Shown here one piece after another: positions 16,273-34,320 of a stretch of 64,000 nt of DNA. Both the position numbers and the translations under genes were made by a program. A model generated the notes under the pieces. That model saw nothing but the letters and a program-made list of their open reading frames with translations, was not told the origin of the DNA and did no database searches. Every line of letters starts with the position of its first letter. Within the stretch, counting starts at the first letter, position 1. The stretch comes from Terriglobales bacterium (GTDB lineage Bacteria; Acidobacteriota; Terriglobia; Terriglobales; Acidobacteriaceae). Location: the NCBI GenBank assembly GCA_035629075.1, contig DASPIK010000086.1, forward strand, positions 17,027-81,026, written 5' to 3'.

Positions 16273-17949
16273 CTATCGCATCGTCTCGATGAACGTAACC
16301 TTGTTGATTTCCTTCAGGGTCGTAACGCCGGCCCTAACTTTATCAAGCGCCGACTCGCGAAGGAACTTCATTCCTTCGTCACGAGCAGCGCGGCGAATCT
16401 CCGAACTCGGACGCTTGGCGAGAATCATTTCACGAACACGATCACTGAGATCGAGCAACTCGTGAATCGCCGTACGGCCCCGGAACCCCGTCCCGGAGCA
16501 CTCGATGCAGCCTTCGCCTTCGTAGAATGGCACGTGCAGCCACTCGCTAGTTTCAAGTCCGCTGGCTTCGAGCACGTCCGCTGGATAGAACACCGTCTTT
16601 TTACAGTCGTTGCAGATGAGGCGAACAAGGCGTTGTGCCAGTACGCAATTGAGAGCCGAGACGAAGTTATATGGCTCGATTCCCATGTGCAGAAAGCGTC
16701 CAATTACGTCCACAACGTTGTTGGCGTGAACGGTAGTAAATACCAGGTGGCCCGTGAGTGCGGACTGGATCGCGATTTCGGCCGTCTCTCGGTCGCGAAT
16801 CTCGCCGACCATGATCTTGTCAGGGTCGTGCCGGAGAATGGATCGCAGACCGCGAGCGAAAGTCAGGCCTTTCTTTTCATTAACCGGTATCTGGGTCACG
16901 CCCCGAATCTGGTACTCAACCGGATCTTCAATCGTGATGATCTTGTCTTCTTCCGTTTTGATCTCGTTCAACCCGGCGTAAAGCGTCGTGGTCTTTCCGG
17001 AACCCGTAGGCCCGGTTACCAGCACCATGCCGTAAGGCTCGGCGATATAACGACGAAACTTCTTCAGATCGTCGTCGCTGAACCCGACCACGTCCAGCGT
17101 AAGCCGGTGAAACTTTTCGCTCATCGACTCTTTGTCGAGCACGCGGAGCACGGCATCTTCCCCGAAAATCGAGGGCATGATGGAGACGCGGAAGTCGATC
17201 TGGCGACCACTGTACTTCACGCGAAAACGGCCATCCTGGGGGACGCGGCGCTCGGCAATGTCGAGTTCTGACATGACCTTCACGCGCGAAATGATGGTTG
17301 AATGATGCTCCTTAGCGATAGGCGACATTGCCGGCTGGAGCACGCCGTCTATGCGGTACTTAATCATCACAGAGTCGTCGCCGGTTTCGATGTGGATATC
17401 CGATGCGCGCCTCTGCAGGGCGGTGAAGATGGTCGTATCAACCAGTCGGATGATCGGACTGATATCGGTTTCGGCCGTCAGCCTTTCGATCGAGATAGTC
17501 TCGTCACCGGTCTCATCTTCACGGATGAGGTCAAGGGTGAACGCTTCGCTTGCTTCTTCAAGGACCCGCTGAGACTGCTCGGTCTTCTTGAGAATGTCAT
17601 TAATCTGATTGAGCGTCGCCACCTTCGTGCGAATGCGCTTGCCGAGCATGAGACCGATTTCGTCGATCATCATGAGTTGACTCGGATCTGCGATGGCGAT
17701 CTCCAGGCGGCCATCCTTCTCTTCCAGTGGCACGAAGTTGTAACGGAACATCAGGTCCACTGGTATCTTGCGGAAGAGCTCGTTGTTCAGGTGAAAGTTG
17801 CGCAGGTCCACGAAGTCGCATCGGTATCGCCGCGCCAGGTCTCGGGTCTTCTGCTCTTCTTCCGCAGGCGTGCCAACAATCACGTGATTGCCGTTGGAGC
17901 CGCCGTTTACAAAAAGGGATTGCGTATTTGCCATAAATCCAGTTCTCAA
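16273..17949 (-). CDS. pilB: Type II/IV secretion system ATPase (PilB/GspE family)
   Basis: 558 aa with Walker A GPTGSGKTTTLY, Asp/His boxes (RHDPDKIMVGEIRD, TGHLVFTTVHAN) and a tetracysteine motif (CNDCKK...CIECSGTG). Confidence 0.9.
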   Translation of the reverse strand: MRTGFMANTQSLFVNGGSNGNHVIVGTPAEEEQKTRDLARRYRCDFVDLRNFHLNNELFRKIPVDLMFRYNFVPLEEKDGRLEIAIADPSQLMMIDEIGLMLGKRIRTKVATLNQINDILKKTEQSQRVLEEASEAFTLDLIREDETGDETISIERLTAETDISPIIRLVDTTIFTALQRRASDIHIETGDDSVMIKYRIDGVLQPAMSPIAKEHHSTIISRVKVMSELDIAERRVPQDGRFRVKYSGRQIDFRVSIMPSIFGEDAVLRVLDKESMSEKFHRLTLDVVGFSDDDLKKFRRYIAEPYGMVLVTGPTGSGKTTTLYAGLNEIKTEEDKIITIEDPVEYQIRGVTQIPVNEKKGLTFARGLRSILRHDPDKIMVGEIRDRETAEIAIQSALTGHLVFTTVHANNVVDVIGRFLHMGIEPYNFVSALNCVLAQRLVRLICNDCKKTVFYPADVLEASGLETSEWLHVPFYEGEGCIECSGTGFRGRTAIHELLDLSDRVREMILAKRPSSEIRRAARDEGMKFLRESALDKVRAGVTTLKEINKVTFIETMR

Positions 17950-17996
17950 ATCAGGTGCCAGTCAACAAATGGGCCGAAGGATCTGACTGGCCTCGA

Positions 17997-19205
17997 CTAG
18001 CGAATGCCGCCCGCGCCGAGCGTGAAGATCGGCAGGTACAGCGAAATCAGCACGAATGCCACGACCGTCCCCATGACGATCAGGATGGCCGGTTCAATCA
18101 GTGACATGGCAGCCGTGAGGGCGTTCTGAACGTCCTCTTCATAGAATTCGGCGACCGAAGTCAGCATGGTTGGCAGCGCGCCCGTTGACTCGCCAACCTC
18201 CAGCATTTCCACCGTCAGCTCGGGAAACGCGTTTGTCTCCTCAAGGCTGCGTGAGAGTGGACGCCCTTCCCGCACCTTCTGCGTCGCATAGCCGACCGCT
18301 TTGCTCACGAACCGGCTCTGAATAGATGCCGCTGCCGTCTCAAGGGCTGGAACCAGCGGCAAACCACCGGAGAGCAGCGTCGCCATCATGCGCGCGAACA
18401 CAGCCACTTGGTACTTAAGCCAAATGGCCCCAAGCCCCGGTAGCGCCACGCGAACTCTGTCGATGCGCTCCGATCCGGTCTCGCTCTTAGCCAGCCGCCA
18501 GATTGCGAAGATCGCTGCGGCAACCGCCGCCAGAAACACGAAAAAGTACTTCTGCGCGGCTGTTCCAACGCTCAACATGAATTCGGTGAGCGCCGGAACC
18601 TCCGTCCCAAGCTGCTCATACAGATTGGCGAACTGTGGAACGACGTACGTGACCAGGAACGTCAACATCACCACGACAAGCACAACCAGCAATGCCGGAT
18701 AGATCAGCGAGGCCGTTAGCTTTTTTCGAAAGCTCATAGCCATCCGCTGAAAGTGGACATAGCGCGTCAACACTTCTTCCAGATTGCCGCTCTTCTCTCC
18801 CGCGAGCAGCGTGGTGGTGTAGATCTTTGGGAAGACGCCCTGCGCGGCGAATGAGTCCGACAGCAGTTCGCCGCTTTTCACGCGGTCTCGCACGTTCTGA
18901 AGAATGGAGCGAAAATACCCCGCCTTCTGGCGCTTAATCAGCAGGTCCAGCGCGTTGAGAATCGGCAAGCCCGCATGAATCAGCGTCACGAACTGCTGAT
19001 TGAAAATGACAAACTGCGACAGCTTAATTCGCCGGCGTCGTAGCTGAATCCCATCTGGGCCCACGATTCCACGGGTCTTAATCTCGTAGACAAGAAGGCC
19101 CTGCTGTGAGAATCGTTCGCGCAGTTCGGCCTCTGAGCGCGCGTTCTCCACCTGTTGCGAGACATGGCCGCGCTCGTCAGCCACCTTTACTAAATATTCT
19201 GCCAT
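17997..19205 (-). CDS. pilC: Type II secretion system F family platform protein (PilC/GspF)
   Basis: 402 aa with the duplicated T2SF domain architecture, three TM segments and a C-terminal LYLPIF motif. Confidence 0.9.
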   Translation of the reverse strand: MAEYLVKVADERGHVSQQVENARSEAELRERFSQQGLLVYEIKTRGIVGPDGIQLRRRRIKLSQFVIFNQQFVTLIHAGLPILNALDLLIKRQKAGYFRSILQNVRDRVKSGELLSDSFAAQGVFPKIYTTTLLAGEKSGNLEEVLTRYVHFQRMAMSFRKKLTASLIYPALLVVLVVVMLTFLVTYVVPQFANLYEQLGTEVPALTEFMLSVGTAAQKYFFVFLAAVAAAIFAIWRLAKSETGSERIDRVRVALPGLGAIWLKYQVAVFARMMATLLSGGLPLVPALETAAASIQSRFVSKAVGYATQKVREGRPLSRSLEETNAFPELTVEMLEVGESTGALPTMLTSVAEFYEEDVQNALTAAMSLIEPAILIVMGTVVAFVLISLYLPIFTLGAGGIR

Positions 19206-19434
19206 CTGGTGCTCTGCTGTTGACTAATAGTGTAACACTCGATGTACCCGGCGATGCGACAGTCACGTGTCGTCGCAAGCACCTGAGACGAGCGACATTT
19301 ATACACCTATCCCGACGTTTTCGGTGCAAAAACGTTGCAGGGTCCGAGTAGCCGCGGCACGCGCAAGTATCGAAAAGCACTGGAGAACCCCACATCCTGC
19401 ACTCGGCCGTTGGATCCTCAAAGTTTGCGACTTC

Positions 19435-20103
19435 TTATTGCGCTAACTCGTTAGCATCAACCGTCTCCACGCCACGGGGCGGCGTAAACTTGAACCGCGA
19501 ATCCGGGATGGGGATGTTCACATTCTGCGACGAGAACCGAAACTCCGTAGTTGAACCGTCAATCTCTTGAGCAAGCAGCCGATGGAAACTGCCATCAGGA
19601 GCGACCTCCATGATGACATCGGAAATCCTGTCGGTCATGTTCCGTGGGATACCACGGAGCACGATATTGCCAGGCACGAGCGGCTTGATGTCGGGCGCGA
19701 TGGAAAGGCCAGTGAACTCTTTTTCAAGCCTGGTCCTGCCGAGCATATACGCGAGCGGAGTACGTAAGTCGTCCAATTTCTTAATGGATGTCCTGCGAGC
19801 CTGCTTATCTCCCGGAACGTAGAACCAAGCCGTCTTGCCGTCCGTCAGGAAAAGCTTCTCGCGGGGTTCCCGGTACTCCCACCGCATGCGCCCAGGCTTC
19901 TTCAGCCAGAGGGTGCCCGACTCAGAACGTGAGATCCCTGCTCCCCGGTAGATTTCAACGAAGTCAGCTTTCAGAGTGATGAGGCTGTTATAGTGGCGAT
20001 CCACCTTTGCGGCAATCTGTCGCACGTCAGCCTGAGCGGCTGCACTCGCCGATAGGCCTGCCGCAGCAACGACGATAACGAAAAGACGTTTAAGAAAGTA
20101 CAT
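19435..20103 (-). CDS. LolA-like outer-membrane lipoprotein carrier family protein
   Basis: 222 aa with a signal peptide, then TLKADFVEIYRG...GTLWLKKPGRMRWEYREPREKLFLTDGKTAWFYVPGDKQ, the LolA-fold signature region. Confidence 0.7.
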   Translation of the reverse strand: MYFLKRLFVIVVAAAGLSASAAAQADVRQIAAKVDRHYNSLITLKADFVEIYRGAGISRSESGTLWLKKPGRMRWEYREPREKLFLTDGKTAWFYVPGDKQARRTSIKKLDDLRTPLAYMLGRTRLEKEFTGLSIAPDIKPLVPGNIVLRGIPRNMTDRISDVIMEVAPDGSFHRLLAQEIDGSTTEFRFSSQNVNIPIPDSRFKFTPPRGVETVDANELAQ

Positions 20104-20286
20104 TTCGTTACCAGTTTCAGGCTTTCTGACGGGGGTTGCAAGTCGCCGGGCGTGCGCCCCCAGCGGCGACGCTATCCCTACGCTCGGTTCATGTTCAGCG
20201 ACTGCGCCGGTGCTTTTTCCCGGTTAACTCCGTTACAGCGACCCCGCAGCGATATCGGACGTGGTAACGACCTCTGTCCTGTCCGT

Positions 20287-21204
20287 CTAGGGTGCAGTGT
20301 CGGTCTGAGGCTCAGAGGGGCCGCCCGGCAACCCGAAATGTACGTACGGTTTCTTTTCAGGAGACTGCAATTCGACTCGGCCGTCCGGCAGCAGTCTGTA
20401 AATCTGGCCTGTCGGATCAACCGGCACGTCTGTCAGCCATCCGGCCGCCACCATCTCCTCAAAATTGCTGGGAGTTCTTCCAGTACTCTCGCGGAACTTG
20501 CGGACAAGTCGCTCGAGCGTTGGAACCTCCTCGTCGATCTTGAGTGCGATTAGATGCTGCAGTGCATTCTTTCGAACCGACTCCGCCGATGACGTTTCGT
20601 AGATCTTCGTCCACAGGAGCCGGGCGGTTTCGGGGTTGCCACCCTTCTCGGCAGTCGTGGCGGCTAGAACGTGAAGCGCCGGGTTCGCGTTTGGAACCTG
20701 CGAGCCTCGAAGAAATACCTCCGAAGCCTCACGGTACGCCCCCATGTCGTAGTAGATGAAACCGAGGTTGTAGTAGAGCGTCCAATCGCTGGGATTGGCA
20801 GCTATGCCGCGCTCCACGAGTTGCGCAGCCTTGTCCGGCTGTCCCGCGCCGCTCGGTGATTTCTGAGACAGGAAGATCGATCCGAACTGGTAAGCAACGA
20901 GCAACTGCGGATCGAGGGTCGTACTGATATCTAGTAGCTGATACAGCAGCGGATACGTGGCCATTCCATCTACGTGCCGCCTGCCGTAATACTGCACTGC
21001 CCGCGTCCAGTAGATGTCTGCCATCAGCCCCGTGTAGCCGAGGCTTGCCTTCTTCAAAACAGCTGCAGAGGGAATGTACAGTGCCTCTTCTTCAGTCGTC
21101 CGTGCGCGCACGCGATCCAGCGGCGCAAGCAGGAAAGCCGCCCCCGAGATGCACAGGAGCAGCATCGTCCCGAAAATCACAGTAATGCGTCTGCGGGGCT
21201 TCAT
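20287..21204 (-). CDS. Membrane-anchored TPR-like protein, hypothetical
   Basis: 305 aa, one N-terminal TM helix, helical-repeat composition. 4-nt overlap with the upstream ABC permease gene. Confidence 0.6.
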   Translation of the reverse strand: MKPRRRITVIFGTMLLLCISGAAFLLAPLDRVRARTTEEEALYIPSAAVLKKASLGYTGLMADIYWTRAVQYYGRRHVDGMATYPLLYQLLDISTTLDPQLLVAYQFGSIFLSQKSPSGAGQPDKAAQLVERGIAANPSDWTLYYNLGFIYYDMGAYREASEVFLRGSQVPNANPALHVLAATTAEKGGNPETARLLWTKIYETSSAESVRKNALQHLIALKIDEEVPTLERLVRKFRESTGRTPSNFEEMVAAGWLTDVPVDPTGQIYRLLPDGRVELQSPEKKPYVHFGLPGGPSEPQTDTAP

Positions 21205-21977
21205 TTGAGATTTCGTCGTTCAAAGATGATGATTGCGCCCGCGATCGCCGCGCCAGCGTAGAGCACTGCGTAAAGCGTGTTGAGCCCAATCAAAGATCCT
21301 GCAACGCCGTTGCCGTGAGCCACAGTCGAGATCACATTTAACGACGCGAAATTCGGAACGACATGAGCGGCGGCCATCGCGATCCAGCGAGGCACCCCAT
21401 GCATCATGGCGGCAAAGGCTCTCAGATCTTCTGCGAACGTACCGATGACCACAATGGCGAGCGTGAACACGGCGGAAAGCAGCGGCGATGAGAACGTTGA
21501 GAAGAAAAGGGTGACAGCCGTGATGATCACGAACTGCAGCACGATGAAATACAGTGCTACCAGAAGCCAGCCGTCACGAGTCTCGAAACGATGAACAACA
21601 ACAAGCAGGGCCAGGAAAAAGCCCACCGCCATGAAAAACGCATTGACGACCAGCGTTCCGGTCAATCCGAAGAACTTGCCGACAATGAACTCCCACCGAC
21701 GTACTGGCCGCGCGAGCACGGTGTAGAGCGTGCGCTTTTCAATTTCCTTCGAGACCAGCCCTATGCCGATGAATATGGCGATGACGATACCGAAAACTGA
21801 AATTGCCGTTAGACCGAGGTTAACCAGGATCAAGCGCTCGATGCCAATTGAAATTTGGCCGAACAGCACGGACGAGGCCACCATCAGAAGCGCGAATACG
21901 ATCAGGTTGTAGAGCACCCGATCCCGTACCGCTTCCCTGAACGTGTTGAAAGCGATGCTCTTGATTCGCGCCGTCAC
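21201..21977 (-). CDS. ABC-2 type transporter permease
   Basis: 258 aa with six predicted TM helices and the N-terminal FNTFREAVRDRVLYNL motif common in ABC-2 permeases. It overlaps the ATPase gene by 4 nt. Confidence 0.75.
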   Translation of the reverse strand: MTARIKSIAFNTFREAVRDRVLYNLIVFALLMVASSVLFGQISIGIERLILVNLGLTAISVFGIVIAIFIGIGLVSKEIEKRTLYTVLARPVRRWEFIVGKFFGLTGTLVVNAFFMAVGFFLALLVVVHRFETRDGWLLVALYFIVLQFVIITAVTLFFSTFSSPLLSAVFTLAIVVIGTFAEDLRAFAAMMHGVPRWIAMAAAHVVPNFASLNVISTVAHGNGVAGSLIGLNTLYAVLYAGAAIAGAIIIFERRNLK

Positions 21978-22912
21978 TGTGCCACCTCCTGGACTTCAGC
22001 GGTCAGCCGTTCCACGAAGTAATCTTCAAGTGTGGCCCGCACAGGATTGATCGAGATGATCTGGGCGCCGTTTCGGCGCAACTCATCGATAGCAGCATTG
22101 AGAATGACTTCCCTAACCACTGCACGCCCGATGTCACCGGTCATGTAGCATTCGGCTCCAAGATCGAACAGTGCACGCAACGCCGACCCGCCCTGCCACA
22201 CGACTTCGAACTTTCCCTGAACCTTCGATGTGAGATCGGCAACAACCCCAACGCCGCGCAGCTCCCCTTTGTCGAGCACGGCGACGCGATCGCACAGAGC
22301 CTCGGCGTCGGCCAGAATGTGGGTCGAGAAGAAGATCGTCTTCCCTTCGTCCTTGAGACTCTGAATCAGGTCGCGGACTTCCCGGCGACCCATCGGGTCA
22401 AGTCCGGACATAGGCTCATCGAGAAATACCAGCTTGGGGTCGTGAATAATCGCCTGCGCAATGCCGACGCGCTGCGACATGCCCTTCGAGAACTTGCGCA
22501 ACTGCAACTTGGGCGAGACATCACCCAACCCAACGCGCTGAAGCACCGACTCGACTCGGCGCTTGCGGTCACCCGCAGGAATGCCCGAGATCTGCGCATA
22601 ATAGTGCAGCAGTTCGTGCGCGGTCAGATAGTCGTAGAAATACGGCTGCTCGGGCTGGAACCCGACCTGCGCCTTCATCCGCGGATCGTCCAGCGCCATC
22701 CCCAGAATCTTAGCCGACCCAGTCGTAGGAAAGATCAGGCCCATCAGCAGTTTGAGCGTCGTCGTCTTCCCCGCGCCGTTGGGGCCGAGATATCCAAATA
22801 TCTCCCCCTCCTCAACCGTTAACGTGAGGGGCCGCAAAGCACACTTCGGCCGCTTGCGCCAGAAGCCGACGCTATAGGTCTTCTCAAGAGCAAAAGTCTC
22901 GATAGCAGACAT
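21974..22912 (-). CDS. ABC transporter ATP-binding protein
   Basis: 312 aa with Walker A GPNGAGKTTT, signature FSKGMSQRV and Walker B LVFLDEPMSGLD. Confidence 0.9.
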   Translation of the reverse strand: MSAIETFALEKTYSVGFWRKRPKCALRPLTLTVEEGEIFGYLGPNGAGKTTTLKLLMGLIFPTTGSAKILGMALDDPRMKAQVGFQPEQPYFYDYLTAHELLHYYAQISGIPAGDRKRRVESVLQRVGLGDVSPKLQLRKFSKGMSQRVGIAQAIIHDPKLVFLDEPMSGLDPMGRREVRDLIQSLKDEGKTIFFSTHILADAEALCDRVAVLDKGELRGVGVVADLTSKVQGKFEVVWQGGSALRALFDLGAECYMTGDIGRAVVREVILNAAIDELRRNGAQIISINPVRATLEDYFVERLTAEVQEVAQ

Positions 22913-23090: not shown

Positions 23091-24890
23091 TTAAAACGAT
23101 GCTCCCGCCTTTAAGACGGGGGCCGCCGAACGAGAAGGATCCGACACGGGCATCGAAGCGCTCGCATTTGCGGTCGCTGGGCGATAAATCTTCAACAAGC
23201 CCAGGTACTTCTTGGGCAGGTCAGGATGTACTTCGATTCGACCGTCACCCAGCCACTTCGCTTCGAGTATGGCGGTCTTGAACTCCTCAACACTTTCCAG
23301 ATTCACGTATTCCACAGCGGGTTCGGCAGGCCCTGTGCGGGTTGGGTCTTCAAACCCAATCAGACTCGGTATATCGAGCAGCGAAATTGGCTCTCGAAGG
23401 TCGCGCACCGGCAATCCAAACGTGATTAGAGGTACCTCGTGGTACGCGCCCTTATCAAAGTTATCGTTGGTCAACCTCCAGCGCGGTCCATGGTCAGAGA
23501 GCAAGACCAGCTTATTGTGATTGACCGGATCGAGGAATCCGGATCTGCGAATCTCGTCGACAACTACGGCCTGTACGTTTTCGAGTTTCCATGCGTTCAA
23601 GCCGATCGGATCACCGGCAACCCTAAGTTGCTGCCATTCCGCGCTGAAATCCCGCAGCGAATCCACTCGGGCACCCAACACCAGATAGCGGTAAATCGGG
23701 GACAAATCAGCAAACCGTGGATAGACTTCGTCATGCAAATATCCCAGGTGTGCGACCGCGAAGACCGGTTGCGGACCTTCGTGCGAACTCAGGATGTCGC
23801 GGACCACAGCACGCAAGTCGAAGGCGTACGTCCCCGCCTGGTTGGACGGAGTTCCGGCAAAAGGGATTCGAGGCAACCGCGAAACGATGAACGGAAGCAG
23901 TATGCTTCCGTTCTTTGCCGCACACGTAGCCTCCCGCAACCACCCCATATGTCCGCTCTGATCGTGATCGAAGCCAGCCACTGACCCAACATAGCTTGTT
24001 ATTTGATCGGTGAAAAAGCTCCAGGTTTGGAATCCCCTATTTTCGGCTTCCTTTACGAGTTGAAAAGGGGAGCGACTCCAGTCTGGCGACTGAAACGTAA
24101 GCATTACCCCTGTTTCACGCACGGGGCGGTGCATGATAATTGCGGTCCATACCGCGTTCGTTAGCAACCCGGGCGTAATTGCACGCTCATAAAATGCGCC
24201 GCCATTTTCCCGCGAGAATTTCCGGAGTGTTCCCAGGTCCATATGGCTTCCTAGGGAATCGATTCCGAGAACGACCGTTGACCCTCGATTTACCTGCCGC
24301 CCTGAACCGAATACCGGTACTTGCGTCAGCAACCATCCACAAGTGACAAGAATCATTCCGGGCACTACCGCCCGCAGAACGCTTACACGGCGCGATGAGG
24401 TGACGTGAATCAAGACTCCGACCGCTACGAGCAATGAGCAGAGTAGTACGTAGGCCCACAGCAAGGTGACGTGGCGAAGCGGAGCAAATACGGCGTTGGT
24501 AAGGACGGCTGGAAACTCGAACGCCACGCCGAGCGTGAGGCTGATGTAAGCGATTGCTGGTTGCAATAACCGCACAGAAGCGGAATGCGTGTCACTCCAT
24601 GAAAAAACAACGAATACAGCGGCGGAAACTACAAACAATATCGCAGCGGAAACCAGAAACTCGGGAATGAGGTGCAACACTCCCACAGCAACTCCGGGAA
24701 ATGCGATCCAGAAGGGCACCTCTTTCGTAGCCGGATATTCCATCAGGTTCATCCCACCGGCTAGCACGGCTGAAAGCGGCCAAATCATGAACCAAAAGAC
24801 TGCCAGGTGGGCTACTCGCGACATGAATCGACGGAAAAGCCTCGCGGGTTCACGATGAGGATTTGCGATTCCAGGCATAACACCGGCCAC
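23091..24890 (-). CDS. Polytopic membrane protein with alkaline-phosphatase/sulfatase-superfamily-like periplasmic domain (EptA/LtaS/PptA-like)
   Basis: 599 aa with about 5 N-terminal TM helices and a soluble domain carrying VVLGIDSLG and LLSDHGPRW. The GTG at 24890 abuts the pilin stop codon; alternative in-frame ATG starts lie at 24878 and 24824. Confidence 0.55.
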   Translation of the reverse strand: MAGVMPGIANPHREPARLFRRFMSRVAHLAVFWFMIWPLSAVLAGGMNLMEYPATKEVPFWIAFPGVAVGVLHLIPEFLVSAAILFVVSAAVFVVFSWSDTHSASVRLLQPAIAYISLTLGVAFEFPAVLTNAVFAPLRHVTLLWAYVLLCSLLVAVGVLIHVTSSRRVSVLRAVVPGMILVTCGWLLTQVPVFGSGRQVNRGSTVVLGIDSLGSHMDLGTLRKFSRENGGAFYERAITPGLLTNAVWTAIIMHRPVRETGVMLTFQSPDWSRSPFQLVKEAENRGFQTWSFFTDQITSYVGSVAGFDHDQSGHMGWLREATCAAKNGSILLPFIVSRLPRIPFAGTPSNQAGTYAFDLRAVVRDILSSHEGPQPVFAVAHLGYLHDEVYPRFADLSPIYRYLVLGARVDSLRDFSAEWQQLRVAGDPIGLNAWKLENVQAVVVDEIRRSGFLDPVNHNKLVLLSDHGPRWRLTNDNFDKGAYHEVPLITFGLPVRDLREPISLLDIPSLIGFEDPTRTGPAEPAVEYVNLESVEEFKTAILEAKWLGDGRIEVHPDLPKKYLGLLKIYRPATANASASMPVSDPSRSAAPVLKAGASF

Positions 24891-25346
24891 CTAACGCAGC
24901 AAGTTCACGCCGGGAGTGCATACGGCGCCCAGGTAAGCGAAATAGAGTTCAGCTGGCGTGTTAGCGCAGAACGATCGGTTGCCCGAAATGCCTGGCTGGA
25001 GCGGTACGGCGTCGGCAGTAAACTGGTTCGTCGTTCCTGTCGCAGAATATCGGTATCCGTTGTGTTGGTTTGGAGCATTCGCGATCTCGGGCGGCAACAA
25101 GTCCGCATGCGCTTCGTCGGGCGCACTACTCGGCCCGAGATTTTCGAGAGATGCGGGATACTTTCCGAAAGAAATCTTGTAGGCGATCTGAGACGTTGTT
25201 ATCGAACGAAGAGTACTGACCGCCGAGGCTTCGTTGGCCGCTATGCGAGCGCGGCTCAGCACGGGTACTGCCAGAGCGGCAAGCACCAGCATGATGGCGA
25301 CCACGATCAGCAGCTCGATTAAGGAAAAACCTCTGCTCCGGCGCAT
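24891..25346 (-). CDS. Type IV pilin / pseudopilin (prepilin-type N-terminal methylation signal)
   Basis: 151 aa starting MRRSRG|FSLIELLIVVAIMLVLAALAVPVLSRARIAANEASAV. Confidence 0.85.
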   Translation of the reverse strand: MRRSRGFSLIELLIVVAIMLVLAALAVPVLSRARIAANEASAVSTLRSITTSQIAYKISFGKYPASLENLGPSSAPDEAHADLLPPEIANAPNQHNGYRYSATGTTNQFTADAVPLQPGISGNRSFCANTPAELYFAYLGAVCTPGVNLLR

Positions 25347-25370
25347 ATCGGCCTCGAAAATCGAATTCGA

Positions 25371-26777
25371 TCAACTCTCTGTTACGGGCTCAGCTTGCTT
25401 AATTGAAACGCGACGACGTAAGCCGAAGCTCTGCTTGAATCTGACGTTCAAATCACTGAGGAGTTCGGCAACGACATATGAACTGAGAAGCAACATCACT
25501 GGCTCAATCGCGTACCGATATCGCTCGGAAGGCAGCGTGAGATAGTAGACAGCCGGGTACGTGACGATCACTCCCAGGTACAGAAGCGCACCCGCCAACC
25601 GCCTTGCAAGTGTCGCTATTAGCCCCAGCAACATCAGTAGCGAAAAACCCGCGTAGAGGGGTGCCACCTCGCCAAATTTGGCGTCAGTCCAGAAAACCCA
25701 GGTGCGCTTAATGGTTAGCTGAACGAACTCCAGCGGATACTCACGAACAAACTGAAACGCCTCGCGCTTTGCCTGAGCCACGTACTCCATCTCTCCGAGA
25801 CGCCGATATTTCTCGAACTCCCATTTGTTCAGACTGGGATGTTTCCCGAACCAGCCCATGCCAAAGCTGTGGTGATAGTTGCTCAAATGAAATTCGAAAC
25901 CGGCATTGCCGCGAATGAAAACCCACTGGTGCATCACCAGGCGATTGCGAACCAGCCAAGGCGAGACCAAAGCAGCCATAACGACCGCGGCGACAACGAC
26001 GTTGCGCCACTGAAGAGATCGCCTTTTCCAGAGATGCCAGACCGGCCAAGCAAACGAAAGCGGCATGAACGCCAGCAGCGCCGGGTTCGTCAATGCGGCC
26101 ACGGCCCAAAGCGCACCGAAGCCAATCCAACGCCACGCAGAAGAATTCTCGGCCAGAGTGAACGCGATAAAGAACAACCAAGCGAGCAGCAGTCCGGAAA
26201 CACTAGTGTCCCACATGCAGGTCACTGGCCAGAACATGAACAAGGCGCCAGCAGACCATATCCAACCAGCGCTGGCAGCGACCTTCTTCCCGAAGGTGCG
26301 TTCGCCGATTCTCACCATTGGTATCGTCGTGAGGGCGCTGAACAACCCGTTTAGGGCCAGAATGACGATTCCAGAGGCCTTACTGAAAACGCCGAATACT
26401 TTGAAAATGAAAGCGCACATCGCGGGGTAGACAGGTCCGATCCATGTGGTCGGCCCTGTTCCGCCCCCGAAAGGAGATGAAAAGCCATGGCCTGTGGCGA
26501 GGGAACTGGCAACCTGTCCCGTTTCCCACCCGAATGGGAAGTGTATATAGGGGTAGTGCGGCGGCGCGTACGGGACGCCCAAGTCGGTCGGGGGGAACTC
26601 GTAGGTTTTGAAATAAAGAATAAGCGCGAGTCGGATTACGAACCCGACTGTCACCATCCACGCCAGAACGAAGCCCGCCGTCCGCTCCACTGGTTTGGAA
26701 TCCGCAAATCCCCAAAGTTGCACCGTCGCCCGTAACATCGCCGTTCCTCTGCTTTTAGCCGCCGAAAACCACCCCAA
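25371..26777 (-). CDS. GT-C fold glycosyltransferase (PMT_2 / ArnT-like, GT39/83-type)
   Basis: 468 aa, more than 10 TM helices, with the first periplasmic loop motif GWETGQVASSLATGHGFSSPFGGGTGPTTWIGPVYP. Clear paralogue of aa 40-470 of ORF 54485-56650. Confidence 0.75.
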   Translation of the reverse strand: MGWFSAAKSRGTAMLRATVQLWGFADSKPVERTAGFVLAWMVTVGFVIRLALILYFKTYEFPPTDLGVPYAPPHYPYIHFPFGWETGQVASSLATGHGFSSPFGGGTGPTTWIGPVYPAMCAFIFKVFGVFSKASGIVILALNGLFSALTTIPMVRIGERTFGKKVAASAGWIWSAGALFMFWPVTCMWDTSVSGLLLAWLFFIAFTLAENSSAWRWIGFGALWAVAALTNPALLAFMPLSFAWPVWHLWKRRSLQWRNVVVAAVVMAALVSPWLVRNRLVMHQWVFIRGNAGFEFHLSNYHHSFGMGWFGKHPSLNKWEFEKYRRLGEMEYVAQAKREAFQFVREYPLEFVQLTIKRTWVFWTDAKFGEVAPLYAGFSLLMLLGLIATLARRLAGALLYLGVIVTYPAVYYLTLPSERYRYAIEPVMLLLSSYVVAELLSDLNVRFKQSFGLRRRVSIKQAEPVTES

Positions 26778-26844
26778 TAAAAAGGGGAGCTTCGGTCTTC
26801 CCGCTGCTCCCCTGATTTATAGCCTAAGCTTTTAATGCGTTGGA

Positions 26845-27336
26845 TTAGAGCGGCGGCAAGGCCACGCACGCTGCTGCATCAGCCGGAGCTGTTCCAGCGG
26901 TATTCTGGAATATGGTACCGGTCGCAGTGGCGCAGAACGCGCGGTTGCCGGTCGTGGTTCTCGTAATCGGAACAGCGGTCGTCAGGAAGTTGGTTGTGGG
27001 AGTAGCTGCAGTCACGGCAAAGGTGTACCCGGATTTCTGGCTTGGAGCGGTAGAAAGAATCGGGTCGATCAAGCAGGCACCCGTGGAGCTAACCGTGCTG
27101 GCAGAGCAGTCCGCCGCGGAGCCGCCAAGCTTTGCAATCGTATCGGCGTACGTACCGTAGCTGGTGAAATACGTGATCTGGGCGGTTACGATGGTGCGCT
27201 CGGACGCAACAGCAGAGGCTTCGTTAGCAGCAATGCGCGAACGCAGCAGGTTCGGGATTGCGATGGCGGCGATGATCAGGATGATCGCCACGACGATCAG
27301 CAATTCGATAAGCGAAAAGCCCTTCTGTCTCTTCAT
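26845..27336 (-). CDS. Type IV pilin / pseudopilin (prepilin-type N-terminal methylation signal)
   Basis: Internal ATG (27336) of ORF 26845-27408, preceded by aggagaagag. The N-terminus is MKRQKG|FSLIELLIVVAIILIIAAIAIPNLLRSRIAANEASAV. Confidence 0.85.
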   Translation of the reverse strand: MKRQKGFSLIELLIVVAIILIIAAIAIPNLLRSRIAANEASAVASERTIVTAQITYFTSYGTYADTIAKLGGSAADCSASTVSSTGACLIDPILSTAPSQKSGYTFAVTAATPTTNFLTTAVPITRTTTGNRAFCATATGTIFQNTAGTAPADAAACVALPPL

Positions 27337-27430
27337 GGTTCTTTCTCTTCTCCTAGAAGATCTTGTGAATTCTCGCTGCTGGAATCCCTGTTCTGCGTTC
27401 CAGAGCACTGACTTCGACCGGCGATATCAA

Positions 27431-27448
27431 TTGCACCGGTCGTGCCAC
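27431..27448 (-). promoter_or_regulatory. Sigma54 (-24/-12) type promoter for the pilin operon
   Basis: The minus strand reads gTGGCACGaccgGTGCAa. GG and GC are separated by 10 nt, and there is one mismatch to TGGCACG-N4-TTGCW. The site lies about 95 nt upstream of the pilin ATG at 27336. Confidence 0.55.
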
Positions 27449-27566: not shown

Positions 27567-27608
27567 TTGACAAATTCTGTCAAGCCGCACTGACAGAATC
27601 TGTCAAGG
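27567..27608 (-). promoter_or_regulatory. Putative enhancer (UAS) with three CTGTCA motifs, including a perfect 8-bp inverted repeat
   Basis: The sequence is ttgacaaaTTCTGTCAagccgcacTGACAGAAtCTGTCAagg. The inverted repeat is 27575-27582 / 27591-27598. The site lies 120-170 bp upstream of the sigma54-like promoter. Confidence 0.4.
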
Positions 27609-27793: not shown

Positions 27794-28153
27794 TTAAACC
27801 TGGAACGACGAACCGCATCCGCAGGTGCTGCGAACGTTCGGGTTCTCGAATTTGAACCCGGCGCCTTCCAGCGTCTCGACGTAGTCGACGGTCGCGCCAG
27901 ACAGGTACATCAGGGACGTGGCGTCGACGAACACCTTCAGGCCGTCGAAATCGAAAGTCTTGTCCATCATCCCAGCACCGCTCTCAAACTGCATGGAGTA
28001 CTGGAAACCGGAGCAGCCGCCGCCAACAACGCCCACGCGCAGTCCGGCAGGCACGGGATTCTGCTGCGCCATGATCTCTTTCACCTTTGAAATCGCGTTC
28101 GGGGTGAAGGTCACTGGCGCCGTCTTGGTAGTCACATCAGGGGTCGTTGCCAT
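27794..28153 (-). CDS. erpA: Iron-sulfur cluster insertion protein (HesB/IscA/ErpA family)
   Basis: 119 aa with GGGCSGFQY and the C-terminal CGCGSSF cysteine triad. Confidence 0.9.
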   Translation of the reverse strand: MATTPDVTTKTAPVTFTPNAISKVKEIMAQQNPVPAGLRVGVVGGGCSGFQYSMQFESGAGMMDKTFDFDGLKVFVDATSLMYLSGATVDYVETLEGAGFKFENPNVRSTCGCGSSFQV

Positions 28154-28302
28154 CGGTTCTCCTAAGCTTGTTCGGTGGATTATAGCAAACTTCCCGAAGT
28201 CACACGGATGCTCGGAAAGCCCTCCTACACTTGGATGAGGTTAACGCGCCTGTGGTCGCAAACACCTGGACTGCTCTGTGCGGGTCCTTCTCTGCCCTGC
28301 GG

Positions 28303-28310
28303 GACTGTTC
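28303..28310. repeat. Target-site duplication, left copy (gactgttc)
   Basis: The 8-bp direct repeat immediately outside IRL is identical to 31153-31160 immediately outside IRR. The boundary is ambiguous by 1-2 nt. Confidence 0.75.
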
Positions 28311-28338
28311 GGTAGTGGTGCAGTTTGAATTTCCACAG
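28311..28338. repeat. Left terminal inverted repeat (IRL) of the IS1-like element
   Basis: ggtagtggtgcagtttgaatttccacag is the exact reverse complement of 31125-31152 (28/28). Confidence 0.85.
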
Positions 28339-28375
28339 GGGTTGACCCAGAGTACGAACTCCGTACACTGAGAGC

Positions 28376-28498
28376 ATGACAGCGAAGAAAAAGACGCCTC
28401 CCAAGAAGCAGCCGAAACCAGCAGCCAAAAAGAAAAGCCGCGAGGATGTGAACCAGGCGGCTTTCAGGATTGTGAGGGAAGCAACTGATAAGGACTAG
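28376..28498 (+). CDS. Small Lys-rich protein (40 aa), hypothetical
   Basis: Below the ORF-track size cutoff. Sequence: MTAKKKTPPKKQPKPAAKKKSREDVNQAAFRIVREATDKD. It is preceded by TTGACC-16 nt-TACACT (28342-28369), only 6 nt before the ATG, so the mRNA would be leaderless-like. Confidence 0.35.
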   Translation: MTAKKKTPPKKQPKPAAKKKSREDVNQAAFRIVREATDKD

Positions 28499-29529
28499 GC
28501 GTTCGCCTGTTCTCCCTCGAAATTTAAGAACATTGATGCATTTCTCTTGGGAAACACTCGATTTACGAGGTCGTAAAATTTGTCCCATTCGGCTATCCCA
28601 AATGCTCTAGCCATGCCGATCAGTTCATATAGATGGCGCGTGAGTTGCGGATGTCCGACGTCTGCCGTCAGATGCTGGTAGTGCTGATGTTCGCGGTACC
28701 CATTTTCATTTACCGGATTCCGCTTCTTCAATTCCTCCAACACCCCCGGGGCTAGTCGTGCATATACCAAATCATTCACAATAGCCCCCATGATTGGGGA
28801 CATGCGTCCGTCATTCCAATTCCATCCCTTGAGCCTGAATACCTGTTTGTAAAACTCCATCGGGAAAGTCTTCGCGTATTCCAGCAGTTCATCGGAGATG
28901 TAGCGCTTCAGGATTTCCTGAAGCATCTCACGCTCGCGATACTCCTGGTACCCGGTAATTTCGTGGACGAGTGCGACGATGCCGACTTTTGCGAATGCAC
29001 GCACTAGGATTTCGCACTGCTTCGCTATATCGAGTTGTTGGTAATTTAGTGCGCCCTTCTCGCGTGCAGCCAGCACCGCATCGCAAAGTTCGGGAAGGAT
29101 GGTCGCCTCATATCCATAGGCGAGCTGGCCCTGAGCCTTAAAACAAATTGGGCTGGTGATCATCTCTCGTAAAGTGTCTGATATGAATGGGTTGAGAGAC
29201 TTCGTGCCAGTAAAATTCGTGAGCCGATCTCCCCCCGATTTGGTGGCGGTTCCGGCGCTCATCTTTAACGCCGAAAGCATACCGCCCTGTGTTAGCACCG
29301 TGCGGCCATCATCCAAAACGTAGCAGGGAATCTCGGCATCAACAATCCGCAGCGGTCTATCAGGGGAGCCATATTCGGCCCTAGGGACGTGCCCCTTGCC
29401 CTTACGCTCTTTCCCCCAACGGGCCTCAGCAGCAGCACTGGCGATTGCCCTGCGTTCTTCGGCGGATAGTTTTTCGGCGCGCGCCTTTCCGCCCCTGGAC
29501 TGAATGACCTCGTCTTTATCGTCGGCCAT
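28495..29529 (-). CDS. Phage-type P63C-domain-like protein (passenger gene)
   Basis: The ATG at 29529 is preceded by ggaggtgatgctc (strong SD). The ORF-track start at 29613 lies inside the transposase promoter. GGKARAEKLSAEERRAIASAAAEARW and IPCYVLDDGRTVLTQGGM resemble prophage P63C-domain proteins; this is from memory and needs an HMM check. Confidence 0.55.
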   Translation of the reverse strand: MADDKDEVIQSRGGKARAEKLSAEERRAIASAAAEARWGKERKGKGHVPRAEYGSPDRPLRIVDAEIPCYVLDDGRTVLTQGGMLSALKMSAGTATKSGGDRLTNFTGTKSLNPFISDTLREMITSPICFKAQGQLAYGYEATILPELCDAVLAAREKGALNYQQLDIAKQCEILVRAFAKVGIVALVHEITGYQEYREREMLQEILKRYISDELLEYAKTFPMEFYKQVFRLKGWNWNDGRMSPIMGAIVNDLVYARLAPGVLEELKKRNPVNENGYREHQHYQHLTADVGHPQLTRHLYELIGMARAFGIAEWDKFYDLVNRVFPKRNASMFLNFEGEQANA

Positions 29530-29606
29530 GAGCATCACCTCCATGCTTACACTAGCAAACCAGAAAGCACCTTGCAAGCATTTTCCTGCACGCATGTCGA
29601 ATTTCC

Positions 29607-29635
29607 TTGACATGCTTGCTGAGCAAGCATAATGT
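29607..29635 (+). promoter_or_regulatory. Sigma70-like promoter of the transposase gene with a palindromic spacer (putative operator)
   Basis: TTGACA (29607-29612), a 17-nt spacer TGCTTGCtgaGCAAGCA and TAATGT (29630-29635). The ATG at 29645 is only 9 nt downstream, so the leader is very short or absent. Confidence 0.45.
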
Positions 29636-29644
29636 ACTCACATT

Positions 29645-30526: not shown

Positions 30527-30530
30527 AGCA

Positions 30531-30562
30531 AAGGCCGCAGAGTTAGCAGGCTCTGCGGCCTT
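30531..30562 (+). terminator. 12-bp perfect hairpin directly after the transposase stop codon
   Basis: aaggccgcagag (30531-30542), loop ttagcagg, ctctgcggcctt (30551-30562). No strong U-tract. Confidence 0.5.
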
Positions 30563-30841
30563 CAATGATTCGATCAACCCACAGCGACACCCAACGATGC
30601 CCTTGCGGAATCGACCATGCCAATACCGAAACCAATTAAATGCCAGACACTCCACTTCGTCAAGAGAAGAGAAAGCGAAAGCGTTACTTTCGAATGTCTG
30701 TGGTACCCACCAAAGAAGCTATTGGGTATTATTGTTGGGCTCCTCGAAGCTTAGCAGATTCGGGGAGTAATCCGGCCCTTCGGCGAACACCGATGGGCGA
30801 CTGTAGGACGTAGCCTTGGGGCCAGCCCGAGGTTATCGTTC

Positions 30842-31120: not shown

Positions 31121-31124
31121 GCTG

Positions 31125-34308: not shown

Positions 34309-34320
34309 ACTTCCCTTCGT

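What the first reader, a model, noticed from the sequence alone, without database searches (positions are those of the whole stretch)
23091..27448. Operon with a sigma54-type promoter encoding two pilins interleaved with a GT-C glycosyltransferase and an alkaline-phosphatase-superfamily membrane enzyme: candidate pilin modification cassette
Seen: four co-directional minus-strand genes with very small gaps. They are a pilin (26845-27336), a 67-nt gap, a 468-aa polytopic GT-C-like protein (25371-26777), a 24-nt gap, a second pilin (24891-25346), a 0-12 nt gap, and a 599-aa protein with about 5 TM helices plus a large soluble domain (23091-24890). Both pilins have short type IVa-like leaders ending in G|FSLIELL. 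The 468-aa protein has the GT-C loop motif GWETGQVASSLATGHGFSSPF...GPTTWIGPVYP. The 599-aa protein carries VVLGIDSLG and LLSDHGPRW, reminiscent of the nucleophile and SDHG metal-binding motifs of EptA/LtaS/PptA-type enzymes. This last assignment is weak. Known: in Pseudomonas group IV pilin loci a GT-C enzyme (TfpW) encoded beside pilA arabinosylates the pilin. In Neisseria, PptA is a membrane alkaline-phosphatase-superfamily enzyme that adds phosphoethanolamine or phosphocholine to pilin. Inference: this looks like a self-contained cassette giving two alternative or co-assembled pilins both glycosyl and phospho-form decoration. I am not aware of that combination and gene order being described.
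Basis: partly seen in the sequence, partly recalled or inferred. Interest (0 to 1): 0.65.

Follow-up and report, generated by a model that had tools for sequence, protein, structure and literature searches.

The report
Pilin locus with two candidate decorating enzymes
A soil acidobacterium's main pilus-subunit gene is followed by a membrane sugar-transferase, a second pilus subunit and a previously unnamed membrane enzyme with a phosphatase-like fold; both enzymes recur in pilus gene clusters of related bacteria, so they probably decorate the pilus, though this is untested.

Summary
There are two type IVa pilins, a GT-C-fold glycosyltransferase and a 5-TM protein with an alkaline-phosphatase/sulfatase fold.

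Corrections:
- The likely starts are ATG 26738 (GT-C) and ATG 24878 (the AP-fold enzyme).
- A strong terminator hairpin follows pilin 1.
- Soil metatranscriptome contigs cover only pilin 1, so it is mainly monocistronic.

New evidence:
- In 6 of 7 contexts examined, the closest GT-C homologues lie in the pilin cluster of type IV pilus loci, directly after the pilin gene(s) in five.
- The 599-aa protein founds a small family with no Pfam or NCBIfam name: 145 cluster representatives among 1.84 billion.
- Its predicted active site is conserved: D211, T244-N245, H381/H386, D466-H467. The nucleophile is a threonine and there is no sulfatase CxPxR motif.
- Family members lie inside pilus clusters in three acidobacterial lineages and one myxobacterium, often beside other GT-C enzymes.
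- One relative carries an ordinary PF00884 membrane enzyme in the same pilin island.

Best reading (about 0.5): a variable pilin-decoration island, with a TfpW-like sugar transfer plus a PptA-like phospho-form transfer to the pilin or its glycan. No chemistry has been shown. The exact four-gene order was not found elsewhere. This is a new variant of a known kind, of moderate interest.

The parts
27568..27605 (-). Two 15-bp palindromes TGACAGAWTYTGTCA, 23 bp centre to centre and about 130-150 bp upstream of the -24 element. Candidate binding sites for a PilR-type sigma54 activator.
   Evidence: the only matches in the window, with 0 expected in 100 shuffles. The sequence is read. The PilR assignment is inferred from my knowledge of (C/G)TGTC PilR sites.
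27432..27447 (-). sigma54-type -24/-12 promoter TGGCACGACCGGTGCA, about 95 nt upstream of the pilin 1 ATG.
   Evidence: one mismatch, the only site in the window. RNA contigs from two soil metatranscriptomes end at 27405 and 27406, about 15 nt downstream of the predicted +1 (about 27421).
26845..27336 (-). Pilin 1, a major-pilin-like type IVa prepilin. It has 163 aa, the leader MKRQKG, 4 Cys, and a globular part that is 28% Ser/Thr.
   Evidence: It is transcribed in soil metatranscriptomes X3, X4 and X6.
26776..26813 (-). Intrinsic terminator: an 8-bp stem (7 G-C pairs, 1 A-U pair) AGGGGAGC...GCUCCCCU, then UUUUAUU.
   Evidence: dG -25.4 kcal/mol, z -3.0, 0 of 200 shuffles as stable. Sequence. 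The X3 RNA contig runs 27 nt past it, to 26749, so some read-through is possible.
25371..26738 (-). GT-C-fold membrane glycosyltransferase (PMT_2-like). It is 455 aa from ATG 26738; the longest ORF reaches TTG 26777. E85 in the WETG loop is invariant.
   Evidence: AlphaFold pLDDT 88. Foldseek hits to AglB, STT3, PglB, ArnT and Pmt4. Homologues lie in the pilin cluster, directly after the pilins in five of six.
24891..25346 (-). Pilin 2, a type IVa prepilin of 151 aa with the leader MRRSRG and a C-terminal Cys pair. Its stop is 0-12 nt before the next gene's start.
23091..24878 (-). Membrane enzyme with five N-terminal TM helices and an alkaline-phosphatase/sulfatase-fold domain, from an unnamed family. 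Predicted active site: D211, T244-N245, H381, H386, D466-H467 (numbered on the 599-aa ORF from GTG 24890).
   Evidence: No Pfam or NCBIfam hit. Family of 32 homologues and 145 representatives. Model pLDDT 89. Foldseek hits to sulfatases and full-length PbgA. hhalign to a PF00884 protein, probability 97%. Conservation in 44 representatives.
20287..22912 (-). ABC ATPase (21974-22912), ABC-2 permease (21201-21977) and TPR protein (20287-21204). This trio also follows the pilin or enzyme genes in relatives. Its layout resembles PilH/PilI/PilG.
   Evidence: The same trio occurs in L016, L021, L026 and L069. The PilGHI comparison rests on the literature (PMC6060248) and was not tested by sequence.
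16273..20103 (-). LolA-like protein (19435-20103), PilC (17997-19205) and PilB (16273-17949). This is the pilus assembly core that places the cassette inside a T4aP cluster.
   Evidence: The same LolA-PilC-PilB run follows the GT-C in L065 and in the third locus, and LolA-PilC in L069.

Best explanation
This is the pilin end of a type IVa pilus cluster in a Terriglobia-class acidobacterium. It carries a variable 'pilin decoration' island.

Transcription (partly shown). Pilin 1 is read from a sigma54 promoter with upstream activator sites. Most transcripts stop at a terminator right after it. The GT-C gene, pilin 2 and the AP-fold gene are made at a lower level, by read-through or from an unseen promoter. 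Pilin 2 and the AP-fold gene are probably translationally coupled.

GT-C step (inferred). The GT-C enzyme sits in the inner membrane. It transfers a sugar from a polyprenyl-phosphate-sugar donor to Ser/Thr of the periplasmic globular domain of membrane-anchored pilin before assembly. E85 in its first periplasmic loop would act as the catalytic carboxylate.

AP-fold step (inferred). The 5-TM AP-fold enzyme has a periplasmic catalytic domain with a metal site (D211, D466, H467) and a Thr244 nucleophile. It takes a phospho-head-group from a membrane phospholipid through a covalent phospho-threonine intermediate, as EptA, LtaS and PptA do. It then passes the group to the pilin or to the pilin-bound glycan. 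The head-group could be phosphoethanolamine, phosphoglycerol or similar.

What is shown: the folds, the conserved residues, the synteny, and the pilin 1 transcript.
What is inferred: the substrates, the donors, the periplasmic topology, and the chemistry.
For: 1. Identity of the parts.

2. GT-C linkage to pilins. Six of the seven homologue contexts examined put the GT-C in the pilin cluster of a pilus locus:
- L001: pilin-GT-C-AP.
- L065: pilC-pilS-pilR-pilin-GT-C-LolA-pilC-pilB.
- L066: pilin-pilin-GT-C.
- A third locus: pilS-pilR-pilin-pilin-GT-C-LolA-pilC-pilB.
- L067: pilS-pilR-GT-C-pilin x3.
- L069: pilin-pilin-GT-C-578aa-ABC-perm-TPR-LolA-pilC.

3. AP-family linkage to pilus genes, in separate lineages:
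- Vicinamibacterales L016, L021, L026: pilB-pilT-pilC-pilS-pilR-AP-GT-C-like-pilin(s)-ABC-perm-TPR.
- Other Acidobacteriota L012, L013, L039, L048: pilB/pilT, pilD, YfhO-like, AP, two pilins.
- L052: pilin-pilin-AP.
- The myxobacterium Aggregicoccus: AP-pilD-pilS-pilR-pilMNOPQ.
- These members are scattered over the whole family tree.

4. L067 carries an unrelated PF00884 membrane enzyme with a Thr-type motif at the end of the same kind of island.

5. The active site is conserved: D211, T244, N245, D466 and H467 in 43 of 44 representatives, and H381 and H386 in 42 of 44. These residues align to the D, T, H..H and DHG of a genuine PF00884 protein. There is no CxPxR sulfatase motif.

6. The globular domain of pilin 1 is 28% Ser/Thr.

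7. A GT-C::GT2 fusion paralogue (39% identity) lies in the same window, and similar fusions occur among the homologues. This points to polyprenyl-phosphate-sugar donors.

8. Promoter, palindromes, terminator and RNA.
Against: - No biochemical or mass-spectrometry data exist for any member.
- Most AP-family loci with readable flanks are not in pilus clusters. Examples: L005, L006, L010, L015, L017-L020 and L023-L025. L008 lies in a sugar-biosynthesis cluster.
- At 41% identity the GT-C homologue L068 is not next to pilins either.
- A GT-C plus AP-fold pair is also the classic lipid A modification pair (ArnT/EptA).
- The window protein itself gives no PF00884 hit. The family link rests on profile and fold comparison.
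- Foldseek TM-scores are low (0.27-0.46), although the probability is 1.0.
- GT-C, pilin 2 and AP transcripts were not seen in RNA contigs. Depth 0 in contigs does not prove absence.
- Periplasmic orientation is inferred only from the Arg-rich N-terminus and from analogy.
Confidence: 0.5

Rival explanations
1. The two enzymes modify an envelope lipid or polysaccharide (lipid A/LPS, EPS, or a periplasmic glucan), as ArnT/EptA, BcsG or OpgB do. They sit in the pilus cluster only because the surface glycan and the pili are co-regulated or functionally coupled.
For: - Sources name the GT-C homologues 'Ara4N transferase-like'.
- Many AP-family loci lack pilus genes. L008 lies among GT28, GT2, DegT and acyltransferase genes. 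L018 and L045 lie next to a PAP2 lipid phosphatase.
- GT-C neighbours of several subfamilies (YfhO, PMT_2, TMTC-like) occur without pilins.
Against: - The closest GT-C homologues lie between pilR or pilA and LolA-pilC-pilB in 6 of 7 contexts.
- The AP genes lie between pilR and pilA in Vicinamibacterales.
- Pilin 2 and the AP gene are 0-12 nt apart.
- No arn- or ept-type partner genes were seen in the island.
Confidence: 0.25
2. The AP-fold protein is a pilus assembly or quality-control factor and not a decorating enzyme. It could be a PbgA-like lipid-binding or regulatory protein, or a hydrolase that removes a group from pilin or recycles a lipid carrier. Only the GT-C modifies pilin.
For: - Foldseek aligns the full length to PbgA/YejM (6xlp_A, 6v8q_A).
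- In Aggregicoccus the gene sits next to pilD with no GT-C nearby.
- In L066 and L069 the same slot holds a different 578-586-aa membrane protein. The slot is therefore not tied to one chemistry.
Against: A full metal-plus-Thr nucleophile set is conserved in 42-43 of 44 representatives, which argues for catalysis. A Thr nucleophile in membrane-anchored AP-fold proteins is typical of transferases (EptA, LtaS); this is from my own knowledge.
Confidence: 0.15
3. The adjacency is historical accident. The pilin region is a hotspot for insertions (an IS lies 1 kb upstream), and the enzymes have unrelated housekeeping roles.
For: An IS1-like element lies at about 28303-31160, just upstream. The gene content of the slot varies between relatives.
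Against: The same two enzyme classes recur in pilus clusters across Terriglobia, Vicinamibacterales, another acidobacterial lineage and a myxobacterium, in different gene orders. Chance does not explain that.
Confidence: 0.07

Closest known systems
TfpW of Pseudomonas aeruginosa group IV pilin loci (GT-C pilin O-arabinofuranosyltransferase)
   Same: It is a GT-C-fold polytopic enzyme encoded directly downstream of pilA. In TfpW, a carboxylate motif in the first periplasmic loop is needed for pilin glycosylation (bioRxiv 10.1101/2020.04.19.049825). Homologues of the window's GT-C lie in the pilin cluster in six loci, directly after the pilin gene(s) in five.
   Different: - TfpW has a DDX motif, a proline-rich PL4 motif and a large C-terminal periplasmic TPR domain.
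- The window protein is 455-468 aa, ends after its last helix, and has WETG (E85) in place of DDX.
- Sequence homology to TfpW was not tested.
- The sugar and the donor are unknown.
PptA (and PptB) of Neisseria: pilin phospho-form transferases of the EptA-like PF00884 family
   Same: It is a membrane-anchored, alkaline-phosphatase-superfamily enzyme with a Thr-type active site and a proposed action on pilin in the periplasm. Neisseria pilin carries both a glycan and phospho-forms (PMC4010543, PMC3656113, abstracts).
   Different: - The window protein hits neither PF00884 nor any EptA N-terminal domain model.
- It belongs to a separate small family.
- It is encoded in the pilin locus next to a GT-C, whereas, to my knowledge, pptA is not linked to pilE.
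- The transferred group is unknown.
EptA/MCR-1, LtaS, OpgB, BcsG, EptC: 5-TM plus AP-domain phospho-head-group transferases
   Same: Architecture (N-terminal TM bundle plus periplasmic AP domain), metal ligands, Thr nucleophile position and the DHG motif.
   Different: The first metal ligand is Asp (GIDS) and not Glu. The TM domain has its own conserved motifs (WP, PEF, LEFPA). There is no curated family match.
PbgA/YejM (LapC)
   Same: Foldseek aligns about 600 columns covering both the TM and periplasmic domains.
   Different: TM-score is only 0.27-0.30. The genomic context is pili, not LPS regulation.
Myxococcus xanthus pil cluster (pilS-pilR-pilA-pilG-pilH-pilI-pilD)
   Same: A sigma54/PilR-type pilA promoter, and an ABC ATPase, an ABC-2 permease and a third protein following pilA (PMC6060248).
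   Different: The enzymes and the second pilin lie between pilA and the ABC genes. Orthology of the trio to PilGHI was not tested.

Membership tests
Type IVa (pre)pilin, PF07963 N_methyl | Short basic leader ending in Gly, Phe+1, Glu+5, and a hydrophobic alpha1-N helix | tested here: met
   E 6.7e-10 and 1.3e-8, both above the cut-off; leaders MKRQKG|F and MRRSRG|F, with E at +5.
Type IVa (pre)pilin, PF07963 N_methyl | C-terminal disulfide-bonded loop | tested here: met
   Cys129/Cys151 in pilin 1 (plus Cys71/Cys82) and Cys121/Cys137 in pilin 2. The pairing itself is inferred.
GT-C glycosyltransferase superfamily (PMT_2 / GT39-GT83-like) | Polytopic GT-C fold | tested here: met
   Model pLDDT 88. 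Foldseek probability 1.0 to AglB, STT3, PglB, ArnT and Pmt4.
GT-C glycosyltransferase superfamily (PMT_2 / GT39-GT83-like) | Pfam PF13231 above the gathering score | tested here: inconclusive
   25.8 bits against a cut-off of 26.1. Most homologues carry precomputed PF13231.
GT-C glycosyltransferase superfamily (PMT_2 / GT39-GT83-like) | Conserved carboxylate in the first periplasmic loop | tested here: met
   E85 is invariant in 34 sequences. Its catalytic role is inferred.
TfpW | Encoded directly downstream of pilA | tested here: met
   homologues.
TfpW | DDX motif in PL1 and a large C-terminal periplasmic TPR domain | tested here: not met
   WETG stands in place of DDX, and the protein ends after its last TM helix.
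TfpW | Sequence homology to TfpW | not tested
Alkaline-phosphatase superfamily / PF00884 Sulfatase domain | AP-type alpha/beta fold | tested here: met
   Foldseek E 2e-8, probability 1.0 to sulfatases and PbgA. TM-scores are 0.27-0.46.
Alkaline-phosphatase superfamily / PF00884 Sulfatase domain | Pfam PF00884 above the gathering score | tested here: not met
   The window protein gives no hit. Eleven of 26 family members give weak hits, the best at E 5e-5.
Alkaline-phosphatase superfamily / PF00884 Sulfatase domain | Metal-binding Asp after beta1 and a DHG motif | tested here: met
   hhalign probability 97% to the PF00884 protein P0244 aligns D211 and SDHG. Both are conserved in 43 of 44 representatives.
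Formylglycine sulfatases | C/S-x-P-x-R nucleophile motif | tested here: not met
   The nucleophile position is T244-N245 (TPGLLTNAVW), with no CxPxR.
PptA/EptA phosphoethanolamine transferases | Curated PF00884 or NCBIfam EptA-type match, including the N-terminal TM domain model | tested here: not met
   No Pfam or NCBIfam hit.
PptA/EptA phosphoethanolamine transferases | 5-TM plus periplasmic AP domain with a Thr nucleophile | tested here: met
   Topology is inferred.
PptA/EptA phosphoethanolamine transferases | Transfer of a phospho-head-group from a phospholipid to pilin | not testable with these tools
   This needs MS and enzymology.
sigma54-dependent promoter | GG-N10-GC with the TGGCACG-N4-TTGCW consensus, upstream activator sites, and a transcript start just downstream | tested here: met
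   One mismatch. Two palindromes with 0 expected by chance. RNA contig ends at 27405 and 27406. Dependence on sigma54 or PilR itself was not tested.

The most novel reading that the evidence does not exclude
Acidobacteriota, and at least one myxobacterium, carry a variable pilin-decoration island. In it an unnamed family of AP-fold, Thr-nucleophile membrane transferases works alongside GT-C enzymes and gives type IV pili both a glycan and a phospho-form. The 599-aa family would be a third, independent lineage of pilin phospho-form transferases. Unlike the Neisseria enzymes it would be genetically tied to pilA, and the slot after pilA would swap enzymes between strains, as O-antigen loci do.
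Probability: 0.35. Interest if true: 0.65.

Novelty: new variant of a known kind. Interest (0 to 1): 0.52.

Why it matters
Pilin decoration controls phage susceptibility, adhesion, aggregation and pilus dynamics in the few pathogens where it has been studied. Nothing is known about it in Acidobacteriota, which are among the most abundant soil bacteria.

If the model holds:
- It names a function for a protein family that has no annotation.
- It shows that glycan and phospho-form chemistries can be encoded together at pilA.
- It gives a tractable test system. A cultured Aggregicoccus strain carries a family member next to pilD.

If it fails, the family is still a distinct, catalytically intact branch of membrane AP-fold enzymes that needs a substrate.

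Tried and rejected
- A sequence search of the AP family profile against PDB chains found only a chance septin hit at E 0.27. Fold search was needed to place the family.
- Pfam and NCBIfam on the window's 599-aa protein gave nothing.
- phmmer with the window GT-C did not detect the GT-C-like neighbours in other lineages. A family HMM found only L026, at E 2e-5. Pfam at relaxed E-values gave sub-threshold GT-C-clan hits (DUF2142, PMT, PMT_2, PIG-V) and significant YfhO hits. I count the sub-threshold hits as suggestive only.
- I asked whether the 578-586-aa protein in the same slot in L066 and L069 belongs to the AP family or to the GT-C family of the window. hhalign rejects both, with probability below 1%. 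Its HDEFSY motif only hints at a GT-C-like enzyme.
- I asked whether pilus-linked AP members form one clade. They do not: 7 label changes are needed, no better than shuffled labels.
- RNA evidence for GT-C, pilin 2 and AP: no run holds them.
- The simple terminator scanner missed the pilin 1 terminator because its loop is longer than 8 nt. Direct folding found it.
- The genome search was shut, so the rest of the genome could not be searched for pilD, pilQ, pilT, pilSR or donor-synthesis genes (notice).
- Literature searches found no description of this family or of acidobacterial pilin modification.

Full report
OBSERVATION

The four co-directional minus-strand ORFs exist as described. Both small proteins are type IV prepilins. 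They hit PF07963 (E 6.7e-10 and 1.3e-8) and several NCBIfam pilin models, with the Myxococcus PilA model as best hit. Their leaders are MKRQKG|FSLIELL and MRRSRG|FSLIELL.

The 468-aa ORF scores 25.8 bits on PMT_2, just under the 26.1 cut-off. Its 278 detectable homologues mostly carry PF13231. The 599-aa ORF hits nothing in Pfam or NCBIfam.

Two starts need correcting. The database gene models begin at ATG 26738 (455 aa) and ATG 24878 (595 aa). The TTG at 26777 lies inside a terminator U-tract.

TRANSCRIPTION SIGNALS

- TGGCACGACCGGTGCA at 27432-27447(-) is one mismatch from the sigma54 consensus and is the only such site in the window. One site per 64 kb is expected by chance, so its value lies in its position, about 95 nt before the pilin 1 ATG.
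- About 130-150 bp further upstream lie two 15-bp palindromes, TGACAGAWTYTGTCA, 23 bp apart. None is expected by chance. They look like enhancer-binding-protein sites. The PilR assignment is my inference.
- An 8-bp hairpin, mostly G-C pairs and followed by a U-tract, sits directly after pilin 1 (26776-26813). Its dG is -25.4 kcal/mol, z -3.0, and no shuffle out of 200 folds as well.
- Public soil metatranscriptomes contain contigs identical to the window at 26749-27405 (X3) and 26868-27406 (X4), and fragments in X6. The shared upstream end lies about 15 nt below the predicted +1.
- No RNA run holds pilin 2 or the AP-fold gene.

Pilin 1 is therefore expressed in soil, very probably from this promoter, and mostly as a monocistronic RNA. 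The downstream genes depend on read-through or on an unseen promoter. The X3 contig runs 27 nt past the terminator. Contigs cannot prove that the downstream RNA is absent.

THE GT-C ENZYME

The AlphaFold model built on 34 homologues has pLDDT 88. It matches oligosaccharyltransferases (AglB, STT3, PglB), ArnT, Pmt4 and EmbB at Foldseek probability 1.0. E85 in the WETG loop and much of the following loop are invariant.

Context is the stronger evidence. I could read seven homologue contexts, and in six the GT-C lies in the pilin cluster of a pilus locus, directly after the pilin gene(s) in five and before them in L067:
- L001: pilin-GT-C-AP.
- L065: pilC-pilS-pilR-pilin-GT-C-LolA-pilC-pilB.
- L066: pilin-pilin-GT-C.
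- A third locus: pilS-pilR-pilin-pilin-GT-C-LolA-pilC-pilB.
- L067: pilS-pilR-GT-C-three pilins.
- L069: pilin-pilin-GT-C-578aa-ABC-permease-TPR-LolA-pilC.

Only the 41%-identical L068 lies elsewhere, next to a GT2-methyltransferase fusion. The window has the L069 layout, with pilin 2 plus the AP-fold gene in the slot after the GT-C.

A paralogue at 54485-56650 is 39% identical and fused to a GT2 domain, and similar fusions occur among the homologues. This suggests polyprenyl-phosphate-sugar donors. The globular part of pilin 1 is 28% Ser/Thr.

THE 599-AA ENZYME

- Family size: only 32 homologues in the 5.8-billion-protein index. A profile search finds 145 cluster representatives among 1.84 billion proteins, about 45 of them full length.
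- Fold: the model has pLDDT 89, with five long N-terminal helices and an alpha/beta domain. Foldseek gives sulfatases (E 2e-8) and full-length alignments to PbgA/YejM.
- Link to a known family: eleven of 26 members weakly touch PF00884. The more distant profile hits (E 1e-12 to 1e-4) are membrane proteins with a clear PF00884 domain.
- Active site: hhalign to one of these proteins (probability 97%) aligns GIDS to GVDS, TPGLLTNAVW to TPFARTFPAW, AHLGYLH to AHFCLAH, and SDHG to SDHG. In 44 representatives, D211, T244, N245, D466 and H467 are kept in 43, and H381 and H386 in 42. T244 sits at the N-terminus of a helix after strand 2, which is where AP-superfamily nucleophiles sit.
- There is no CxPxR motif, so this is not a formylglycine sulfatase. 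A threonine at this position is typical of phospho-transferases and phosphodiesterases (EptA, LtaS, NPP; my knowledge).
- The TM part has its own conserved motifs: WP, PEF and LEFPA.

CONTEXT OF THE AP FAMILY

From 20 genome loci and 36 metagenome loci, plus direct look-ups, members lie in pilus clusters as follows:
- Terriglobia: the window and L001.
- Vicinamibacterales L016, L021 and L026: pilB-pilT-pilC-pilS-pilR-AP-GT-C-like-pilin(s)-ABC-permease-TPR.
- Another acidobacterial lineage, L012, L013, L039 and L048: pilB/pilT, a GT-C, pilD, a YfhO-like protein, AP and two pilins.
- L052: pilin-pilin-AP.
- The cultured myxobacterium Aggregicoccus: AP-pilD-pilS-pilR-pilMNOPQ.

These members are spread over the whole family tree and do not form one clade.

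Many other loci show no pilus genes within 8-10 kb. Some lie next to GT-C-like proteins, some next to a PAP2 lipid phosphatase, and one inside a sugar-biosynthesis cluster. Four loci have tandem paralogues.

In L067 a different, ordinary PF00884 membrane enzyme closes a GT-C-plus-three-pilin island. Its motifs are LETT, YTTFPITRS, AHSPFP and GDHGPR. In L066 and L069 the slot holds an unrelated 578-586-aa membrane protein.

An unchecked note from this scan describes a similar pilin island in another genome, bracketed by a phosphotransferase and a TMTC-like GT-C. I treat it as a lead only.

MECHANISM

My best reading (about 0.5) is a variable pilin-decoration island. The GT-C would O-glycosylate membrane-anchored pilin from a polyprenyl-phosphate sugar, as TfpW does. 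The AP-fold enzyme would take a phospho-head-group from a phospholipid onto Thr244 and pass it to the pilin or its glycan, as PptA, EptC, BcsG and LtaS do.

Shown: the folds, the conserved residues, the synteny and the pilin 1 transcript. Inferred: topology, donors, acceptors and chemistry.

Rivals:
- Envelope lipid or glycan modification of the ArnT/EptA type, sitting in the cluster for regulatory reasons (0.25).
- A non-decorating role for the AP-fold protein, PbgA-like or hydrolytic (0.15).
- Accidental adjacency (0.07).

COMPARISON AND NOVELTY

The window's GT-C works like TfpW but fails two of TfpW's defining features: it has no DDX motif and no C-terminal TPR domain. The AP-fold enzyme has the architecture of EptA, PptA, LtaS and PbgA, but it fails their curated models and forms its own family.

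Pilins that carry both a glycan and phospho-forms are known in Neisseria. To my knowledge, the Neisseria genes are not clustered at the pilin gene. I found no paper on this family or on acidobacterial pilin modification.

The exact four-gene order is not conserved. What recurs is the set of modules: pilin(s), a GT-C, often an AP-fold enzyme, then an ABC trio. I rate this a new variant of a known kind, with interest about 0.5.

Noticed in passing
window 12048-12542 (+): A third major-pilin-like paralogue. Its N-terminal 30 residues are identical to pilin 1 and its globular domain differs. It lies on the opposite strand at the far end of the pilM/N/O operon.
   Followed up: partly
window 19435-22912 (-); L016, L021, L026, L069: An ABC ATPase, an ABC-2 permease and a TPR protein, followed here and in L069 by a LolA-like protein. 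The set forms a conserved block between the pilin region and pilC in Acidobacteriota. The layout recalls Myxococcus pilH/pilI/pilG. The TPR protein gives a weak Tgl (secretin pilotin) hit at E 0.007.
   Followed up: partly
window 54485-56650 (-): A 721-aa fusion of a GT-C domain (39% identical to the pilin-linked GT-C) with a C-terminal GT2 domain. It may make and use a polyprenyl-phosphate sugar.
   Followed up: partly
window 27794-31160: Relatives have pilS-pilR directly upstream of the pilin. This window instead has an ErpA/IscA-like gene and an IS1-like element carrying a P63C-domain gene. The activator for the sigma54 promoter must be encoded elsewhere.
   Followed up: no
L066 6359-8119; L069 7359-9095: A 578-586-aa polytopic protein with no Pfam family and an HDEFSYLL motif. 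It occupies the slot after the GT-C where the window has pilin 2 plus the AP-fold enzyme. The two copies are 77% identical to each other. It is related neither to the AP family nor to the window's GT-C family.
   Followed up: partly
L067 10089-11368: A PF00884 membrane protein with Thr-type motifs (LETT, YTTFPITRS, GDHGPR). It closes a pilS-pilR-GT-C-pilin x3 island, so a different AP-superfamily lineage sits in the same kind of place.
   Followed up: partly
L004, L011, L014, L032: Tandem pairs of AP-family paralogues with no pilus genes nearby. In L004, L031 and L032 the upstream neighbour is an unannotated polytopic membrane protein.
   Followed up: no
window 27303: RNA contigs of X4 and X6 read G where the window has A, inside pilin 1. 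X3 agrees with the window. This looks like strain variation in the soil population.
   Followed up: no
L001 5813-6343: The pilin gene of the closest relative, a long-read MAG, reads out of frame over its last 40 or so codons. This is probably an assembly indel.
   Followed up: no
window 32374-38110 (-): A cluster of GlgE-type maltosyltransferase, maltokinase-like and branching-enzyme genes (an alpha-glucan pathway). It is unrelated to the finding.
   Followed up: no
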